A stretch of DNA of 53,305 nucleotides, taken from a virus. Lineage: Duplodnaviria; Caudoviricetes. The translations under genes and the position numbers were made by a program. The notes beneath the pieces are model-generated. The model was not told the DNA's origin. It was given only the letters and a program-made list of their open reading frames with translations, and did no database searches. Shown one piece after another: positions 38,551 to 46,187 of the stretch (positions are counted from its first letter, which is position 1; each line of letters opens with the position of its first letter). The stretch covers positions 1 to 53,305 of the IMG/VR virus record IMGVR_UViG_3300001199_000286; one strand, given 5' to 3'.

Positions 38551-39045
38551 TTAGTTAGCTTCACCAATAATACGATCCATATGATCATCTAAATCTGTCT
38601 TTTCATGGAAAATGTCATTTCCTAATTTGTCCATGGATTTTCTTAAAAAATGTCCCAAAGATTGAACATTTTCATGGTTCTTATCCCAAGCCTTCAAATG
38701 TTGAACCAACATTTTAACATCGCATTTAGCAGCATTAATTGCTTTTTTAGCAGCAATCACAGTTGCATCTGATTTAGTCTTTGCTTCGGCTTGCTTCTCT
38801 GTACAACCCCCATTCGATTTGTAATTGTCATAAACTTGACCATAAACAAGATCATAGTCAGCCTCTAAATCAAATAGTTTCTTTTCAAACTCGGCAAGTT
38901 TCCGTCCAAAATAATCAACCCAAGAATATTCTTTTTGAAGATAATCGCTTAGGTTGTTTTCATTAAACTTAAAATTGACAGGATCAATTACAATTTGCTC
39001 CCCATCAAGATTCAACGTCTTCTTAAAAATTGGTGCTATTTCCAT
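38551..39045 (-). CDS. UvsY-like recombination mediator
   Basis: Helical 164 aa with TEKQAEA motif, directly downstream of replicative helicase. Confidence 0.55.
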   Translation of the reverse strand: MEIAPIFKKTLNLDGEQIVIDPVNFKFNENNLSDYLQKEYSWVDYFGRKLAEFEKKLFDLEADYDLVYGQVYDNYKSNGGCTEKQAEAKTKSDATVIAAKKAINAAKCDVKMLVQHLKAWDKNHENVQSLGHFLRKSMDKLGNDIFHEKTDLDDHMDRIIGEAN

Positions 39046-40565
39046 TATTGTCCACCATTTCCTTCTTCTTCTTTATTATAACCTAATTTATCAAGCGGTT
39101 TTTTCTTCTTCTCAAAATCTTTTTCAACATTTTGAGTCTTCTTCTCAGCAATTGCATTCATTCGAGAATAATATATCTTCTCCGCAACTTCTGTCATGTT
39201 AAGTGTCCCGCCACTATAATCAAACTCAACATGAAAAGGAAACTTACTGATTCCTTTTCTGTGTTTTATCACAAACACTCTACCTAACTCAACAGACTTC
39301 TCTACAGGAAGTTGATTAATCGACCAAAAAGCATCCAATGGCTTGTATTGATCAAAACTAGTTCCAATGTTCGATTCATCTATGTATTGAGTAATATCTA
39401 ATTCAGAAGCTGTTCTATTGGGTTGAATACAAGTGAAAGTGCCATGCTTCTCACGAATACCAAAACCACGTAAATCTCTCAAAATTCTAAATCTGGATTC
39501 GTGAAGTTCTAAACGTGGATCATCCTTCATTTCGCCCACGTAATCCACTATCATTAAATCAGGCTTCCACCCAATTCTTGTCACTAATTGACTATGAAAA
39601 GCTCTCACTCCATTAACATCGAGTTCACCACCAGGAAATTGTTTAACAATCAATCTATTTTTGTCTTCTGAATCATCGGTGAATGTTTTCAATAAATCAA
39701 TAATACTCTCTTTCTCTCTAACCAGATTATTGATACTGAAACCAGTGAACATGCTGGTGAAACGCTCAGCAATACCTACTTCATCCATTTCCATGGTCAG
39801 ATACAATACTTTATGACCACGTTTAACGTTCTCTACAGCCCCTTTAACTAACGCCAAACTCTTACCTGTTCCAGGTAGACCAATCCATGAAGCAAGCTCT
39901 CCACGCTTAATTCCCTTGCTTGAAAGGGCATTGTCAATTGCCATGAAACCAGAAGTGAAAATGTCTTCTGGTTTCGTTTCATCTTCCATTCTTTCAAACA
40001 ATGCGTTTGGATTGATAAAATACTCCAAACCATTGTCATAATTTTTGTCAATGCTGACAGCTTTCATTGTCTCATCAATGATAAAATTCCAGACATCTTC
40101 ACTGTCTGGATCTTTTTTAAGCTTCTCCAAAGACTTATAAAAAGCTATTTTTACCGCTTGTGTCTTGGCAAAACTGATGATTTTATCAACTAATGCGTCT
40201 CGGCTCTCTAAACCTGGAACATAATAATCATAACATTGTTCCAATTCTGACAAATAATGAAGTCTGATATTCGCATCAGCTTCTTTTAACCCATCATGAA
40301 CTTCTTGCTCTAAAAAGAATTTTTTAGGGATAGAATTGTATTTATCGTAATACTTAAAAAGTTTACCAACAAAGAAAATGTGAGATTCGTTGGAAAAATA
40401 CTCAGGTTTTATCTTATCTCTAGCTTGGGTTAAAAAATACTGGTCACTGAGAAGCATCCCAGTAAGATTTTTTTGAAATGTCTCAGACCAATTAAACTTA
40501 ACTGTGGGTTCATTTTTACCAGAAAGGTTATCTACAATACTCAAATGCTCGTTCGTTATATCCAT
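39045..40565 (-). CDS. Replicative helicase (DnaB / T4 gp41-like)
   Basis: GLPGTGKS, YLTMEM, IVKQFP, IVDY, QPNR, KHR.G. Confidence 0.92.
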   Translation of the reverse strand: MDITNEHLSIVDNLSGKNEPTVKFNWSETFQKNLTGMLLSDQYFLTQARDKIKPEYFSNESHIFFVGKLFKYYDKYNSIPKKFFLEQEVHDGLKEADANIRLHYLSELEQCYDYYVPGLESRDALVDKIISFAKTQAVKIAFYKSLEKLKKDPDSEDVWNFIIDETMKAVSIDKNYDNGLEYFINPNALFERMEDETKPEDIFTSGFMAIDNALSSKGIKRGELASWIGLPGTGKSLALVKGAVENVKRGHKVLYLTMEMDEVGIAERFTSMFTGFSINNLVREKESIIDLLKTFTDDSEDKNRLIVKQFPGGELDVNGVRAFHSQLVTRIGWKPDLMIVDYVGEMKDDPRLELHESRFRILRDLRGFGIREKHGTFTCIQPNRTASELDITQYIDESNIGTSFDQYKPLDAFWSINQLPVEKSVELGRVFVIKHRKGISKFPFHVEFDYSGGTLNMTEVAEKIYYSRMNAIAEKKTQNVEKDFEKKKKPLDKLGYNKEEEGNGGQ

Positions 40566-41099: not shown

Positions 41100-41114
41100 C
41101 TAAATCTCCTAAAG

Positions 41115-41525
41115 TGTAAAATATTGAGGCTGGTTCAGATTAAGCTAGAAGGCTTCGGAACTATACCTACGCAGCCATATTTAGTGGCGTTTTGTCGCAT
41201 TAACGATATAGATTACGTCTAGAAATAAGTCTGCTAGTTTGTTATTTTTGGTTCCAGCCTCACTACATTATTATGGGCCTACTTTACTTCAGTCCGGCCA
41301 ACACTTGGTGCTGGTAACACCAACTTGACGTGCCCGATGGGAGTTACACCCATACTCCTTCGCAAGACTTCATTTTATACCGTTCGTGCGGCTCCACGGC
41401 TCTCAATAAGACTCGAAATAAATAAGGGGAGACGAATGATTTTTAGATTCGTCTCCCCTTTCAATATAATATATTCCTGGTAGTTGTTGACCAACATACA
41501 ATACAGGAGTTAAACAACGGACATT
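41115..41525 (-). ncRNA. Structured non-coding region with tRNA-like T-arm and tmRNA-like tag frame
   Basis: ATGGG-TGTAACT-CCCAT-CGGGCAC (41330-41353); 9-bp long-range stem 41125-41133/41254-41262; frame DKTPLNMAA* (41167-41196). Strand not certain. Confidence 0.45.
41416..41460 (-). terminator. Strong hairpin, probable terminator
   Basis: 14-bp stem 41424-41437/41447-41460 followed by ATTTATTT on minus strand. Confidence 0.65.
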
Positions 41526-41532
41526 AATATAA

Positions 41533-42264: not shown

Positions 42265-42846
42265 TTAATTGGTCATGGCTAAATAATCAAACTCTGAAAT
42301 AGATACCTGTCCATTTCTAATAGACTTTTCTTTTGTTATTTTTTTACCAAGTGTTTTTTGTTTATTCCAAATAATAGATTTACAATAAGTTGTAAACTTA
42401 GCATCAATAATAAGTGGAGCAAAAGGACAAGGTTGTTTTTTCTCTGGGGCCAATTTTATTAAAGTTTTCAACATCTTTTCTTGATATTGACCAAACTTTT
42501 GACGATTGGCTCCATGACGTTTTCTATTGTCCCACAAATGACGTAGCTCTTTCAAGACCAATATTAAAAAATTATCTTTTAAGTATTTTTCACAAACCAC
42601 AAAACAACGCTCAATGTAAACTTGTCTTTTGTGATAGCTACCAGCGTGAATCAAACAAAATTGAAGATCCTGGTTAATGTCTTCTACTTCTTCTACACAA
42701 TTGTTCTTTGAATTTTTCTTTTTTAGTTGGTGGGCCGCGTAATAGCACAATTTACCAAACTGCTCAAATAAAACATTATACTCTTCTGTAGATACTTTAT
42801 ATTCTAGAAATATGTCGTTTAACAAATCATTTTTGGGACGAGGCAT
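42265..42846 (-). CDS. Possible minimal sigma-factor-like protein (region 2 only)
   Basis: EDINQDLQFCLIHA and AKFTTYCKSIIWN resemble sigma70 regions 2.2 and 2.3-2.4. Confidence 0.4.
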   Translation of the reverse strand: MPRPKNDLLNDIFLEYKVSTEEYNVLFEQFGKLCYYAAHQLKKKNSKNNCVEEVEDINQDLQFCLIHAGSYHKRQVYIERCFVVCEKYLKDNFLILVLKELRHLWDNRKRHGANRQKFGQYQEKMLKTLIKLAPEKKQPCPFAPLIIDAKFTTYCKSIIWNKQKTLGKKITKEKSIRNGQVSISEFDYLAMTN

Positions 42847-44155
42847 TCTTTCTCCTTATCAATTTTAAATTATTTAAGTTCCTGCCTCCTTTACAAACAA
42901 CCCTTAATTTTAAGCCCTTACAAAGTTCGCTTTCCGAGGACAAAATAGCATCAGCCTGTTTATAAACTTCTTGCCACTTGTCTTTATGTACAGCCAGATA
43001 ATATCCATCATGCACATAAAGGGGAATTCTAATATCTTGTTTTAGCTGATTATATAGTAAAATTAATTTTTCCAAACAAATTATTGCAGCAGGACTTTGA
43101 ACAACGAAATTTCTAACAGCCCATTCTTCATCGCTCTTAAAATTTCGTCTTCGGCCAAAATAATCCAAACAAAAGGAGTTTTTGCGGAAAAAAGTAAGTT
43201 GATCATGCACCCAATTTAATGCGGTTTCAAACTTGGAATAGATGCGATCTGATACTTCATTCGCGGTTAAGGTCGTATCTGAATTTTTTAATTTTTCAGA
43301 CAGAGTAAACGAGGTCTGTCCATATATAATCGGCAAAAATATATTTTTTACTAGATTTCTTTCGTTTAATTCACATTTTCGCTCAAATATCTTCTCAAAA
43401 ATCAAAGAATATAAATCTCCGCCGTCGTTAATCACGCTCTTCAAAGCTAAATCTTGACTTAACCATTGTAGCACAAATACCTCAAAACCATTGAAGTCAA
43501 AATACAAAAAAATCTCATCATAATTTGCGGAATAATGCTCTTTAGCTGCTGAATCCAAATTCAAAGGGCTAAAACCCCTAGTAAAAGCTTTGTATGACTT
43601 TAACCTGCTAGTTTTCTCTGTAATATCATAATAGGCATGTTGGGTAATTTTCTCGTTATTATTAACCAAACCCGTGGTTTCAATATGCGGAAGAACATTT
43701 TTAATCAATGGAGAATAGACGTTTTGATAGATTTTTAGGACTTGAGGTAGATCTGTGGTGTCAGCTTTAATCCTATTGAGTCGTTTAAGGGCCTCAGCGT
43801 ACGTTTTGGGAGGGTTTAGGTACTTAGCCTCATAGTATTCCAAGATTCTTAGGTCACGTAGATTACAAGCGATTTCTAAAGGGGTTTTGACGAAGTAGTT
43901 GAAGTAAGATAGCAGATTTTTAAAATTCCAACCCAACAAGAATATTTCTTTATTGTTAAATAAGCATATTTTTAAATCTGACCTAAGTTTAACCACACTG
44001 GCTTTATCAAAAACAATCTGCAGAATTTTCTCTTTAGAAGAGATATTGAGGGTGTAAACATCATTTTTTGTGAAATCAATAATCTCTTGTTCACAGTAAA
44101 TATAAAATATCTTGGATTCACTTTTAAGAACTAGGTCGAAAAGCTCTGTATTCAT
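42827..44155 (-). CDS. Short divergent family-A DNA polymerase
   Basis: Motif A YFDFNGFE, motif B RNLVKNIFLPIIYG, GRRR, NFVVQSPAA, motif C VHDG. Confidence 0.85.
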   Translation of the reverse strand: MNTELFDLVLKSESKIFYIYCEQEIIDFTKNDVYTLNISSKEKILQIVFDKASVVKLRSDLKICLFNNKEIFLLGWNFKNLLSYFNYFVKTPLEIACNLRDLRILEYYEAKYLNPPKTYAEALKRLNRIKADTTDLPQVLKIYQNVYSPLIKNVLPHIETTGLVNNNEKITQHAYYDITEKTSRLKSYKAFTRGFSPLNLDSAAKEHYSANYDEIFLYFDFNGFEVFVLQWLSQDLALKSVINDGGDLYSLIFEKIFERKCELNERNLVKNIFLPIIYGQTSFTLSEKLKNSDTTLTANEVSDRIYSKFETALNWVHDQLTFFRKNSFCLDYFGRRRNFKSDEEWAVRNFVVQSPAAIICLEKLILLYNQLKQDIRIPLYVHDGYYLAVHKDKWQEVYKQADAILSSESELCKGLKLRVVCKGGRNLNNLKLIRRKNASSQK

Positions 44156-44162
44156 GGAATTG

Positions 44163-44190
44163 AGTATAAAGCAAAGAACATCGAAAACAA
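44163..44190 (-). promoter_or_regulatory. Promoter giving a probable leaderless polymerase mRNA
   Basis: TTGTTT-N16-TATACT, 7 nt before ATG 44155. Confidence 0.5.
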
Positions 44191-44229
44191 AGAGTAATTT
44201 ATTAAGTTAATTTTAAAGTTTTTGTTTAA

Positions 44230-44718
44230 AATCCGAGGGGCGATACTAGAAGATGTAGTTGTTATTAACTTATTATATACTTCTAATTATATTGGGAATA
44301 TAACAAGACATATCTTTTAATTAAGATATGATATAGTGTTAAAATCATGTGGTGATTAAACCACCAATTACACTTTATAATAACAAACAACTACAGATTC
44401 AGCATTGCACGAATTTAGGTGCCAATTTATCTTTCATCAAGATGTATGTGCAGGTTTCTAAAATATACTTATTGTTCTTATGCTCGGTACAACCTATAGT
44501 TGCTTAACACATAAGAAATCGCCATTTTTGGCAATAAGTGAAACGTATCCTGCTGCTATAACAGTGTTAGGGCCTCGTTTACCCTCACCTACTCGTCAAT
44601 TATGCAGACGTAGCTAGTTTTAGGCGATATTTCTGTTTTTAGGGGCATACCATATTACAGAGATAAAGAAGGGATCGTGCCCTTACACAGTGAATTTATA
44701 GTGTTTTATAACCGAATA
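44230..44718 (-). ncRNA. Candidate large structured ncRNA (or replication origin)
   Basis: No ORF in track across 618-bp gap; many nested 8-10 bp stems; upstream TTGTGT-N17-TATTAT (44725-44753). Confidence 0.55.
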
Positions 44719-44773
44719 ATCCTTATAATAGTGTATTCGTTTAACTAACACAATAGGATTTTTTCTATTTTTA

Positions 44774-45481
44774 TTAGAAACTTGGAGCAAAGGGATCTAC
44801 CTCACCAAATTTTTTAGCATCAGTAGACGATTTAGCCCCAATATGTTGTACTATAGATCGTGCCGTAACAAATACAGGTATTTTAAGTTGTTCTGCAATA
44901 CAACCCAAAATGAGATCCCCAGGTGTGTCCCATACCCTTCCCGTCAACCCATTATAAGCTTGTGCTTTTTCAATAATACTCATGTGCCATAAATAGTTTT
45001 TTAATGTCTGAACTACTAATTGTGGAAAATAAATACACTGCTGGCCAACAATCGGACCAGCTTGTTGGTAAACATCTCTATCAAATACAAATTGTTTTCT
45101 AGTATTGAATACACTTAGTATGTATTTATCAATTCCATCTTCTTTTATCATCCTAGCCAGACGTATAATTTTTAAAATTGCGTCGTCGTGAAATATAACA
45201 TCATCTTCCATAATAATGTTGTCATATTTTGGAGAGATAGTCCTACACCAATTATAATTTATTCTTCTTTCTGGACTCCAATTTTTAATATTTTCCCATT
45301 GATTTTGTGGCATAGGATGTATTATAATATTTTTGTTTTGTTTATAGTGTTTTAAATAAGACCAATCAGGACTACCAGGGAAAATATTTACTGGTCCTGT
45401 ATACCCACTGGCAAACAAACTGCTCAAAGTAGTGTGGATGTAAGGTCTATTCCAACTGATAAAAGATAAACAAAGATTCAT
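44774..45481 (-). CDS. GT-A glycosyltransferase-like protein
   Basis: RPYIHTTL.SL, IIMEDD, SIVQHIG..S. Confidence 0.7.
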   Translation of the reverse strand: MNLCLSFISWNRPYIHTTLSSLFASGYTGPVNIFPGSPDWSYLKHYKQNKNIIIHPMPQNQWENIKNWSPERRINYNWCRTISPKYDNIIMEDDVIFHDDAILKIIRLARMIKEDGIDKYILSVFNTRKQFVFDRDVYQQAGPIVGQQCIYFPQLVVQTLKNYLWHMSIIEKAQAYNGLTGRVWDTPGDLILGCIAEQLKIPVFVTARSIVQHIGAKSSTDAKKFGEVDPFAPSF

Positions 45482-45497
45482 AAGGATATTATAGTAA

Positions 45498-46187
45498 GTG
45501 AATTATCGTCTTGACTCTGCTGTTATTTATGGAATGAACCAACTCGAAACTAAAGCATATTATTTATGTCTAGTTTGGTTGGATTTGTCCCGACATTATT
45601 TTCCTAAATACAATCATTTTAAAGTTAAAAAAGGAGATCCTAGAAAGTCCACATTATTCAAGTATTGTCATACTTTAATCAGAAAAACTTGGGGCAAACT
45701 GCCTGAATCGGATTATCATCTTTATGTTAAAGCCCAGTTAGTTATATTAAAAGCTGTGGGAGAAAAAGAAAATGTTTATGTTAGGGTTGAGCCAAATTGT
45801 CTATTAGGAGAAAAAGCTTGGAAGCGTTGGAAAGTATTCAAAAAGAAATATGATGCAAAATTGAAATTTATAGATGATATCAAAGTAGAAACACCAGAAG
45901 GTGTAGTTAAGGAATCTTTACTTAGAAGTCATAAATTTTTAAAAAAACACCTGCCAGAATTTACAATCGAAAAATTCCAAGAATTAAATAAAACACAAAT
46001 TGTTTTGAAATGGATAATTTTAGGGCAAATTAGTCAATATTATGCTTTGATTTGCCCATTTATTAAGCATTCTATTTCTGAAGAAGAATTGGCTAAAAAA
46101 TTGAACTATGATTTGAGTGTATATAAAAGCTCAATTAATTTGAATATCATAGAGTGGTTTGATAAAGAAATATGGTTGAAACCTTAA
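45498..46187 (+). CDS. Hypothetical protein
   Basis: 229-aa ORF, no recognisable motif. Confidence 0.65.
   Translation: MNYRLDSAVIYGMNQLETKAYYLCLVWLDLSRHYFPKYNHFKVKKGDPRKSTLFKYCHTLIRKTWGKLPESDYHLYVKAQLVILKAVGEKENVYVRVEPNCLLGEKAWKRWKVFKKKYDAKLKFIDDIKVETPEGVVKESLLRSHKFLKKHLPEFTIEKFQELNKTQIVLKWIILGQISQYYALICPFIKHSISEEELAKKLNYDLSVYKSSINLNIIEWFDKEIWLKP

What the first reader, a model, noticed from the sequence alone, without database searches (positions are those of the whole stretch)
42827..44760. Large structured non-coding RNA candidate paired with a short atypical PolA
Seen: a 618-bp ORF-free gap in a genome with otherwise tiny spacers. It holds nested stems (44254-63/44386-95; 44309-16/44323-30; 44350-54/44362-66; 44467-74/44532-39 enclosing 44475-82/44510-17; 44628-36/44657-65) and has its own promoter-like site pointing toward the polymerase. 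The 442-aa PolA keeps both catalytic Asp but has DFNGFEVF for the usual DxSQxExR and VHDG for VHDE, with no clear exonuclease motifs. No RNase P, group I or group II intron signatures seen. Inference: an undescribed polymerase-ncRNA system (RNA as primer, template or scaffold) or a structured replication origin.
Basis: partly seen in the sequence, partly recalled or inferred. Interest (0 to 1): 0.85.

Follow-up and report, generated by a model that had tools for sequence, protein, structure and literature searches.

The report
Large structured RNA upstream of phage PolA
The gene-free stretch in front of a small, unusual DNA polymerase gene in this huge-phage fragment most likely encodes a large folded RNA, and related phages carry a conserved, previously undescribed folded RNA at the same spot, which could bear on how these giant phages start copying their DNA.

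Summary
Window 44156-44773 is a 618-bp ORF-poor gap, and all six reported stems exist. The 442-aa protein is a compact Klenow-like family-A polymerase with family-wide FDFxxMEV and HDG motifs.

The main result is comparative. In 25 of 52 distinct related viral loci, the space directly upstream of the homologous PolA, on the same strand, holds a conserved ~550-650-nt ORF-free element. Its support:
- Core junction: 98.8% of cells paired, and 14 of 19 pairs changed on both sides.
- Two long-range pairings that covary.
- G·U pairs on the PolA-sense strand.
- One copy per record in the four records tested.
- In one locus, a 12/12 sigma-70 consensus promoter.

It has no Rfam match and no tRNA, and three full-text searches turned up no description.

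For the window's own gap the evidence is weaker:
- A ~87-90% relative conserves the gap as well as the coding DNA. It shows one compensatory pair change, one mismatch turned into a pair, and three changes that keep pairing only on the minus strand.
- The 5' domain model hits the right place and strand only marginally (E 0.028 in the gap, rank 3 window-wide).
- The core model does not hit.

Function is not shown. In 3 of 3 sequences examined the RNA sits where GC skew turns, so I favour a replication-start transcript. A PolA leader is the close rival.

The parts
42827..44155 (-). 442-aa compact family-A DNA polymerase. It has an N-terminal exo-like fold and a polymerase domain. Motif A is DFNGFEVF, motif B is R266/K270/Y278/G279, and motif C is VHDG.
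   Evidence: Pfam PF00476, E 1.3e-24. Invariant residues in 29 homologs. AlphaFold pLDDT 93, pTM 0.91. Foldseek to Klenow 1kfs, E 1.6e-19, TM by query 0.77. Profile alignment to Taq.
44209..44720 (-). Candidate structured RNA, read on the PolA-sense strand. It runs from the start of the 5' domain match to the last A/U-rich hairpin after the 3' block.
   Evidence: ORF-poor. Folds at z -3. 88-93% conserved in the X2 relative against 87% for PolA coding DNA. Pair-preserving changes. Same position and strand as the RNA family of the homolog loci. The ends are inferred, not mapped.
44604..44720 (-). Match to the 5' domain models. It covers ACUGUGU, a 5-bp hairpin with a 6-nt loop, a GGUAUGCCCC loop and UAAAACUAG.
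   Evidence: R2: 9.0 bits, E 0.028 within 44100-44830, full-length model alignment. Rank 3 of 15 window-wide, E 2.1. R3: 10.0 bits, rank 3 of 19.
44628..44665 (-). Hairpin UAUCUCUGU / ACAGAAAUA enclosing the GGUAUGCCCC loop.
   Evidence: In relative X2, 44633/44660 changes G-C to A-U, 44631/44662 changes A·C to U-A, and 44630 gives G·U on the minus strand.
44570..44584 (-). Hairpin GGG-UAAACGAGG-CCC. Its 9-nt loop resembles the family's P4 loop (NNNACGRGA), and CGAGG is complementary to CCUCG in the 3' block.
   Evidence: Located. Compared by eye. Not statistically tested.
44224..44241 (-). 3' block GCCCCUCGG followed by GAUUUUAAAC, the 5' arm of a terminal A/U hairpin. It lies 69-86 nt upstream of the PolA ATG and resembles the L032/L007 3' block.
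   Evidence: nhmmer aligns it to the family's 3' block with E 0.11 in a gap-only search.
44249..44400 (-). Long stem 44249-44263 / 44386-44400 with inner hairpins 44309-16/44323-30 and 44350-54/44362-66.
   Evidence: Part of it (44336-44438) is replaced by 64 other letters in the X2 relative, so this sub-domain is variable.
42265..42846 (-). 193-aa protein overlapping the PolA stop. It is conserved directly downstream of PolA.
   Evidence: tblastn finds it in 80 loci; the 12 best listed are 53-58% identical. No Pfam or PHROG hit. Weak sigma-70-like leads only.
44774..45481 (-). 235-aa ORF that bounds the gap upstream. No family assigned.
   Evidence: No tblastn match in the 80 loci at E 1e-4.
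45498..46187 (+). 229-aa protein transcribed away from PolA. In most related loci its homolog is the gene on the far side of the RNA.
   Evidence: tblastn match in 68 loci, upstream of PolA and on the opposite strand in the 12 hits listed.
39045..40565 (-). DnaB-like replicative helicase of the same replication module.
   Evidence: Pfam DnaB_C/KaiC. PHROG 19, E 1.9e-48. Match in 70 loci downstream of PolA.

Best explanation
The 618-bp gap is not empty spacer. It is most likely the gene, or the long 5' leader, for a large structured RNA transcribed in the same direction as the PolA gene that follows it.

Shown for relatives. Many phages carrying this compact PolA have, in exactly this position and orientation, a conserved ~550-650-nt RNA. 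It contains a multi-helix junction, a loop-to-3'-block pseudoknot and a second long-range helix. It matches no Rfam family.

Shown for the window. The gap is conserved as well as the neighbouring genes, and substitutions in a relative preserve pairing on the minus strand.

Inferred. The window's RNA is a divergent member of, or a functional counterpart to, that family.

Inferred function (about one chance in three). The RNA is the transcript that starts replication at an origin lying here. It would be made from its own promoter towards PolA and used as an R-loop or primer that the family-A polymerase extends, as with ColE1 RNA II and Pol I or the T7 origin transcripts.
For: RNA family in relatives:
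- R1 core: 20 of 52 distinct loci hit, all upstream of PolA on its strand. 98.8% of cells are paired and 14 of 19 pairs changed on both sides. 0 of 500 shuffles reach this, and slid controls pair at <=43.8%.
- Stem P1b is complementary at every position (G-U allowed) in 17 of 20 rows, with 11 distinct sequence combinations among the 20 rows, including the imperfect ones.
- The B2-B5 long-range helix is fully complementary in 10 of 15 rows and 5 of 6 in the other five, with 10 distinct sequence combinations across the 15 rows.
- P4 loop against 3' block: ACGGG pairs with CCCG in 7 loci and ACGAG with CUCG in 7, so 14 of 14 where both were found among 19 examined. On the tree these switches arose more than once.
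- Sense-strand G·U pairs: 11 rows at one pair, with few unpaired cells.
- Stops occur in all six frames of the core.
- R2 finds the 5' domain in 18 of 52 loci, including 3 not used to build it. The union of R1 and R2 is 25 of 52.
- Reverse test: of 42 RNA-pattern matches in viral contigs, the 18 of 41 that R1 confirmed, plus L020 (known), were all upstream of a PolA homolog.
- One copy per record in 4 of 4 positive records.
- A 12/12 TTGACA-17-TATAAT promoter with TG sits just upstream of the RNA in L030.

Window:
- Searches show the gap and stems.
- Relative X2 differs at 191 of 1453 positions in PolA, against 18/183, 8/121 and 28/284 in the gap.
- Of 11 listed gap differences, 2 form one compensatory pair, 2 turn a mismatch into a pair, 3 give G·U on the minus strand only, 3 are unpaired and 1 breaks a 2-bp stem.
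- R2 and R3 hit 44604-44720 on the minus strand.

Origin idea: cumulative G-C turns at the RNA in G007 (minimum ~70 kb, RNA at 69.8-70.9 kb), in G006 (minimum 145-149 kb, RNA at 148.3-149.3 kb) and in the window (fall ends ~43-44 kb).
Against: Window membership:
- R1 has no hit in the gap; the best window hit has E 1.2 and lies elsewhere.
- The R2 and R3 hits are only third best in the window, with E 2.1 and 1.9.
- The family HMM reaches only E 0.11 even in a gap-only search.
- blastn of the gap against 58 other distinct upstream regions gives nothing below E 0.12.
- The quick PolA tree puts the window, on a long branch with weak support, among 20 loci that R1 and R2 do not hit.
- My motif-by-motif mapping of the window was done by eye after seeing the family.
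- The X2 difference list was truncated to 40 of 350, so partners of the 'one-sided' changes may also differ.

Function:
- The skew turning points coincide with a switch in gene orientation, which alone can produce them.
- An elaborate conserved tertiary fold is more than known primer RNAs need.
- Some homologs have a large gene ending 5-30 nt before PolA and no R1 match anywhere in their records. The RNA is therefore not obligatory for this polymerase.
- No terminator-like site lies between RNA and PolA in L030 or L033, which suits a leader.
- No expression data exist.
Confidence: 0.6

Rival explanations
1. The RNA is a cis-acting 5' leader of the PolA (and downstream 193-aa gene) mRNA. It would be a very large regulatory element that senses a signal or binds the polymerase to set its expression.
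For: - It is always directly upstream of PolA and on the same strand: 25 of 25 positive loci and every confirmed hit in the reverse search.
- In L030 the only strong promoter lies upstream of the RNA, and no terminator-like site follows it before the ATG.
- An RBS-like AGGAG precedes the ATG.
Against: - At 550-650 nt with two pseudoknot-type contacts, it is far larger than known bacterial leaders (my knowledge).
- The last 92-177 nt before the ATG are not conserved and vary in length, so the start site is not built into the fold.
- Weak promoter-like sites lie between the RNA and PolA in L033. By eye, L020 has one too.
Confidence: 0.25
2. It is a trans-acting large 'ornate' RNA (a ribozyme, scaffold or RNP component) whose position next to PolA reflects only the strong synteny of this replication module.
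For: - The whole neighbourhood is syntenic: the 193-aa protein matches in 80 loci, DnaB-like in 70, and the divergent 229-aa gene in 68.
- The fold is complex.
- It has its own consensus promoter.
- It is present once per record.
Against: No case was found of the RNA away from PolA. No ribozyme or other Rfam family matches, even at E<=10.
Confidence: 0.1
3. The window's gap is a DNA-level feature (an origin with inverted repeats, divergent promoters, or decayed gene remnants) and its stems have no RNA function.
For: - Both strands fold equally well.
- The family models do not hit it convincingly.
- A 103-nt piece is swapped for 64 other letters in a close relative.
- The skew turns here.
Against: - Outside the swapped piece the gap is 88-93% conserved against 87% for PolA coding DNA.
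- Three listed one-sided changes keep pairing only as G·U on the minus strand, and one pair is compensated.
- No ORF of 36 aa or more lies on the sense strand.
Confidence: 0.05

Closest known systems
ColE1 RNA II / DNA polymerase I origin priming (also T7 origin transcripts extended by T7 DNA polymerase)
   Same: A several-hundred-nucleotide folded transcript with its own sigma-70-type promoter, made towards the point where synthesis would begin, in a system whose polymerase is family A. The location is a GC-skew turning point. The comparison itself rests on my knowledge of those systems.
   Different: No sequence or Rfam relation. The phage RNA has a conserved junction and pseudoknots not known for RNA II. 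R-loop formation, RNase H processing and extension are untested. The polymerase here is encoded immediately downstream.
Large ornate bacterial and phage RNAs of unknown function (GOLLD, ROOL, OLE, raiA)
   Same: Size class (~500-650 nt), rich covariation, occurrence in phage genomes, and unknown biochemical role.
   Different: None of these Rfam families matches the window or 16 related loci at gathering score, nor L030 or L033 at E<=10. This RNA has a fixed partner gene (PolA), which is not typical of those classes (my knowledge; for the cryo-EM preprint 10.1101/2024.12.08.627333 I saw only the search listing and the start of the abstract).
Klenow-type family-A DNA polymerases (E. coli Pol I large fragment, Taq, Bst, apicoplast Pol)
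   Same: Whole-chain fold match: 1kfs E 1.6e-19, TM by query 0.77. Motifs A, B and C align, including the catalytic Asp residues and the steric-gate Glu position.
   Different: Only 442 aa. Motif C is HDG rather than HDE, and motif A lacks SQ and R, in all 29 aligned homologs. The N-terminal ~165 residues match no PDB chain by sequence. Exonuclease catalytic residues were not identified.
Self-splicing introns of phage DNA polymerase genes (group I)
   Same: A structured RNA of a few hundred nucleotides with long-range pairings, associated with a phage polymerase gene.
   Different: It lies upstream of a complete ORF whose start aligns with homologs. The flanking gene is often on the other strand. 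No Intron_gpI or group II hit appears even at E<=10.

Membership tests
PolA-upstream structured RNA family defined here (models R1, R2, R3; unnamed) | Lies directly upstream of a homolog of this compact PolA, on the same strand | tested here: met
   The gap abuts the PolA ATG. The best 5' domain match is on the minus strand at 44604-44720.
PolA-upstream structured RNA family defined here (models R1, R2, R3; unnamed) | Core junction: AAACCUG, P1b, P2, GUCUUUGUAG, P3, P4, AGGU | tested here: not met
   R1 with filters off gives no hit in the gap; the best window hit has E 1.2 and lies elsewhere. By eye, a reduced P2+P4 core like that of L002/L004/L009 is possible.
PolA-upstream structured RNA family defined here (models R1, R2, R3; unnamed) | 5' domain: ACUGAGA, a 5-bp hairpin, a GUACC-type loop inside a hairpin, then AAAAACYUG | tested here: inconclusive
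   R2: 9.0 bits, E 0.028 in the gap, E 2.1 and rank 3 in the window. R3: 10.0 bits, rank 3. E-values are rough, by about a factor of five.
PolA-upstream structured RNA family defined here (models R1, R2, R3; unnamed) | P4 loop complementary to a 3' block ~90-180 nt before the ATG, followed by a terminal A/U hairpin | tested here: inconclusive
   Candidates exist: loop UAAACGAGG at 44570-44584 and GCCCCUCGG at 44233-44241. nhmmer on the 3' block gives E 0.11. The match was made by eye after the fact.
Family-A DNA polymerase (Pfam PF00476) | Motifs A (Dx..E), B (RxxxKxxxxxxxYG) and C (HDx), with a palm/fingers/thumb fold | tested here: met
   The deviation is HDG for HDE, invariant in the family.
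DEDD 3'-5' proofreading exonuclease domain | Exo I/II/III acidic residues (DxE, NxxxD, YxxxD) | tested here: inconclusive
   The whole-chain Foldseek match to Klenow implies an exo-like N-terminal fold. Only D27 and D101 are invariant acidic residues in residues 1-165. No residue-level superposition was made.
Known Rfam RNAs (GOLLD, ROOL, OLE, RNase P, tmRNA, group I/II introns, riboswitches) | Covariance-model score at or above the gathering threshold | tested here: not met
   0 matches in the window and 0 in 16 related loci covering 138,408 bases. Only chance-level hits at E<=10. ARAGORN found 0 genes in the window and in 20 loci.
ColE1-type RNA-primed origin | Transcript forms a persistent hybrid at the origin, is processed, and is extended by a family-A polymerase | not testable with these tools
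   Only indirect evidence: a promoter ahead of the RNA and skew turning points at the RNA, which are confounded by gene orientation.

The most novel reading that the evidence does not exclude
Huge phages of this group carry a dedicated polymerase-RNA replication module. A ~600-nt ornately folded RNA, made from its own promoter at the origin, is specifically recognised by the compact HDG-type PolA. That polymerase may lack proofreading; this was not tested here. The RNA would serve as its primer or loading scaffold. This would be a new kind of DNA-polymerase ribonucleoprotein and a new way of starting replication of a double-stranded DNA virus.
Probability: 0.2. Interest if true: 0.95.

Novelty: categorically new. 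Interest (0 to 1): 0.8.

Why it matters
Large, elaborately folded RNAs are rare, and almost every well-understood one does something fundamental. This one has a fixed partner gene, a DNA polymerase with an altered active-site motif. It also sits where strand-composition skew turns in megabase-class phage genomes, whose replication origins and initiation mechanisms are unknown.

If the RNA primes or loads the polymerase, it would give a testable model for how huge phages start replication, and a new natural polymerase-RNA pair. If it is a leader, it would be by far the largest cis-regulator of a replication gene.

In either case the alignments and models made here define a new RNA family. It can be searched for, probed and solved.

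Tried and rejected
Known RNA families. Rfam at gathering score on the window and on 16 loci, Rfam in E-value mode on the gap, L030 and L033, and ARAGORN all gave nothing.

Coding. The conserved core has stops in all six frames. The gap's small plus-strand ORFs overlap a segment that a close relative replaces.

Intron. Rejected, because PolA's start aligns with homologs and the upstream genes are often on the opposite strand.

Closer relatives of the window:
- A viral-contig scan with the protein found none.
- A metagenome-contig scan with the protein found none.
- A metagenome-contig scan with a gap pattern found none.
- blastn against phage records found none.
- Only LR756511.1 covers at least 80% of PolA (32% identity). 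Its upstream region gave no R1 or R3 hit.

Sequencing runs. Two DNA holders were listed and no RNA holder, so nothing can be said on expression. Contigs of X2 were laid, but only 40 of 350 differences were printed.

Pattern scans. None of the 79 loci I checked with R1 was real.

3' domain. RNAalifold found no local consensus structure for the 3' domain alignment, so no structural model was built for it.

The R1/R2-negative group:
- R3 found nothing in the 27 R1/R2-negative loci.
- Sequence HMMs do not link those loci, or the window, to the family.
- By eye, L076/L068 and L061/L071 do have conserved upstream elements with compensatory changes and an AAAAACCU...AGGU frame.
- R1 is absent from six large records: G001-G005 and G010.

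Tree. The careful tree search did not finish. The tree used is the quick one.

Literature. Three full-text searches listed no paper describing an RNA upstream of a phage PolA. I saw only listings and the starts of abstracts and read no paper. Supplements are closed and might hold such motifs.

Full report
**What the window is.** The window is a 53,305-bp virus record with a CheckV completeness estimate of 11%, so it is a fragment of a very large phage. The finding lies in a replication module on the minus strand. In order, this module contains:
- a DnaB-like helicase (39045-40565);
- a NUDIX-like ORF, my label from its sequence and not tested against a family library;
- a MORN-like ORF;
- a 193-aa ORF;
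- PolA (42827-44155);
- the 618-bp gap;
- a 235-aa ORF.

**Checking the observation.**
- The gap is real, and so are all six stems.
- The median spacer between 66 greedily picked ORFs is 10 nt.
- The gap folds about 3 SD better than shuffles on both strands.
- Rfam and ARAGORN find nothing.

**The polymerase.**
- Pfam DNA_pol_A matches residues 177-427.
- 120 homologs of about 435 aa exist in the protein collection. One is 90% identical and the rest are at most 41% identical. They occur on contigs up to 622 kb.
- In 29 aligned sequences, the following are invariant: D220 and E225 (motif A, FDFxxMEV), R266/K270/Y278/G279 (motif B) and H382-D383-G384-Y385 (motif C). HDG is therefore a family trait, not a local mutation.
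- The profile alignment to Taq places HDG on HDE and FDFxxME on DYSQIE.
- The AlphaFold model is confident (pLDDT 93, pTM 0.91). It matches the Klenow fragment over the whole chain (TM by query 0.77). This implies a compact exo-like N-terminal domain.
- Only D27 and D101 are invariant acidic residues in that domain. Whether it proofreads is open.
- The Glu at the steric-gate position (E225) suggests a DNA polymerase rather than an RNA polymerase. This is an inference from knowledge of Klenow E710.

**Related loci.** An alignment-based scan of viral contigs found 133 stretches encoding relatives, and the best 80 were kept. I reduced them to 52 distinct loci. Many have 400-1000 nt without an ORF of at least 80 aa upstream of PolA. 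The window's gap has no blastn similarity to these regions (best E 0.12). However, the regions resemble each other in blocks.

**The core block.** The strongest block is a ~100-nt element with stops in every frame and obvious compensatory changes.
- Model R1, built from it, hits 20 of 52 loci, always upstream of PolA on its strand.
- On the model-fitted alignment, 98.8% of cells pair and 14 of 19 pairs changed on both sides.
- No shuffle out of 500 reaches this, and slid controls pair at no more than 43.8%. The alignment is fitted to the model, which favours it.
- A further 5-bp stem (P1b) is complementary at every position (G-U allowed) in 17 of 20 rows, with 11 sequence combinations among the 20 rows.

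**The full element.** The element is much longer than the core. Conserved blocks span about 550-650 nt.
- A loop motif (GUACY type) pairs with a distant AGUAC-type block. The pairing is perfect in 10 of 15 rows and 5 of 6 in the rest, in 10 distinct sequence combinations across the rows.
- The P4 hairpin loop covaries with a 3' block. ACGGG goes with CCCG in 7 loci and ACGAG with CUCG in 7, so 14 of 14 where both were found out of 19 examined.
- By eye, further states occur: ACAAGA/CUCUUGG in L002 and L004, against CGAG/CUCGG in their close relative L009.
- On the PolA tree these switches occur in separate clades.
- G·U pairs are common on the sense strand, for example 11 rows at one pair, while unpaired cells are few. 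The functional strand is therefore the PolA-sense strand, as RNA or single-stranded nucleic acid.

**Extent of the family.** Model R2 (5' domain) hits 18 of 52 loci, including L002, L004 and L009, which were not used to build it. The union of R1 and R2 is 25 of 52.

**Reverse test.** Searching viral contigs with an RNA-only pattern gave 42 stretches.
- R1 confirmed 18 of the 41 searched. L020 was already known.
- All of these lie upstream of a PolA homolog. This includes one contig not retrieved before.

**Copy number and absences.**
- The RNA is single-copy in four records.
- It is undetected in six other large records.
- It is undetected upstream of PolA in LR756511.1.

**Promoters.**
- In L030, a perfect TTGACA-17-TATAAT promoter with an upstream TG sits just before the RNA. 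No terminator-like site follows it.
- L033 has only weak sites, and these lie between the RNA and PolA.

**Known families and literature.**
- No Rfam family matches these loci.
- Three literature searches listed nothing relevant. I saw listings only.

**Is the window's gap a member? Evidence for.**
- It has the same position and strand.
- The best R2 and R3 matches in the gap are full-length, co-linear and on the right strand (44604-44720). E is 0.028 when only the gap is searched.
- By eye, there is an ordered series of family-like elements: a B1-type hairpin, a GGUAUGCCCC loop inside a hairpin, and a 9-nt-loop hairpin carrying AAACGAG.
- That loop's CGAGG matches CCUCG in a GCCCCUCGG block 69-86 nt before the ATG, followed by a terminal A/U hairpin.

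**Is the window's gap a member? Evidence against.**
- R1 does not hit.
- The R2 and R3 hits rank only third window-wide.
- The HMM reaches only E 0.11.
- The quick tree places the window's long branch among R1/R2-negative loci.
- That group itself seems, by eye, to carry divergent structured elements with compensatory changes. Sequence HMMs cannot link them.
- I rate membership as probable but unproven.

**Independent evidence that the window's gap is functional.**
- Contigs of run X2 hold a relative with 191 differences in 1453 nt of PolA (about 87% identity). It has 18/183, 8/121 and 28/284 differences across the gap (88-93%).
- 44336-44438 is replaced by 64 other letters.
- Of the 11 gap differences that were printed, two form a compensatory G-C to A-U change, and two turn an A·C mismatch into U-A.
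- Three more turn Watson-Crick pairs into G·U on the minus strand. These would be mismatches on the plus strand.
- Three are unpaired, and one breaks a 2-bp stem.
- The list was truncated, so this is suggestive rather than conclusive.

**Function: origin evidence.**
- The module is highly syntenic.
- In G007 the cumulative G-C curve is flat for 70 kb and then climbs for 300 kb. Its local minimum is at the RNA.
- In G006 a V-shaped minimum at 145-149 kb coincides with the RNA at 148.3-149.3 kb.
- In the window the fall ends at 43-44 kb, next to the gap.
- In all three, the skewed arm runs in the direction of RNA and PolA transcription.
- Gene orientation switches at the same places, so this fits an origin but does not prove one.

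**Function: ranking.** Family-A polymerases classically extend transcript primers (ColE1, T7, mitochondria; my knowledge). I therefore rank a replication-start transcript first, a giant PolA leader second and a trans-acting ornate RNA third.
- Against any obligatory cofactor role: some PolA homologs have a large gene ending 5-30 nt upstream, and no R1 match occurs anywhere in their records.

**Verdict.**
- A new, PolA-linked family of large structured RNAs is well supported in relatives.
- The window's copy is a probable divergent member, with some independent conservation evidence.
- The mechanism remains inference.

Noticed in passing
window 42265-42846 (-): The 193-aa protein overlapping the PolA stop matches in all 80 related loci. 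The 12 listed hits lie just downstream of PolA at 53-58% identity, higher than PolA itself. It has no Pfam or PHROG family. Atlas leads point weakly to sigma-70 region 2-like proteins (structure TM 0.46).
   Followed up: partly
window 41100-41532: A second sizeable ORF-poor gap (433 nt) lies between the NUDIX-like and MORN-like genes in the same module. It was not examined for structure or conservation.
   Followed up: no
window 44336-44438: In the ~88-90% identical relative from run X2, this 103-nt piece of the gap is replaced by 64 unrelated letters while both flanks stay conserved. It may be a variable sub-domain or an insertion/deletion hotspot inside the RNA.
   Followed up: partly
L076/L068 and L061/L071, ~420-500 nt upstream of PolA: Loci that the RNA models do not hit still carry conserved upstream elements with compensatory changes and an AAAAACCU...AGGU frame. 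They may be divergent types of the same RNA. Sequence HMMs could not link them.
   Followed up: partly
L030 1827-1855 (+): A perfect TTGACA-17-TATAAT promoter with an extended -10 TG sits just upstream of the RNA. In this subgroup the 5' ACUGAGA domain is missing and the upstream gene ends right before the promoter.
   Followed up: partly
window 45498-46187 (+) and homologs: A 229-aa protein of unknown family has tblastn matches in 68 loci. In the 12 listed it lies upstream of PolA on the opposite strand. In the typical locus the RNA therefore sits in a divergent intergenic region. The window has an extra 235-aa gene inserted between them.
   Followed up: no
G002, G003, G010 (records behind L045, L070, L006): Three of the large records carrying this PolA are classed as 'provirus' by IMG/VR, which is unexpected for huge phages.
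   Followed up: no
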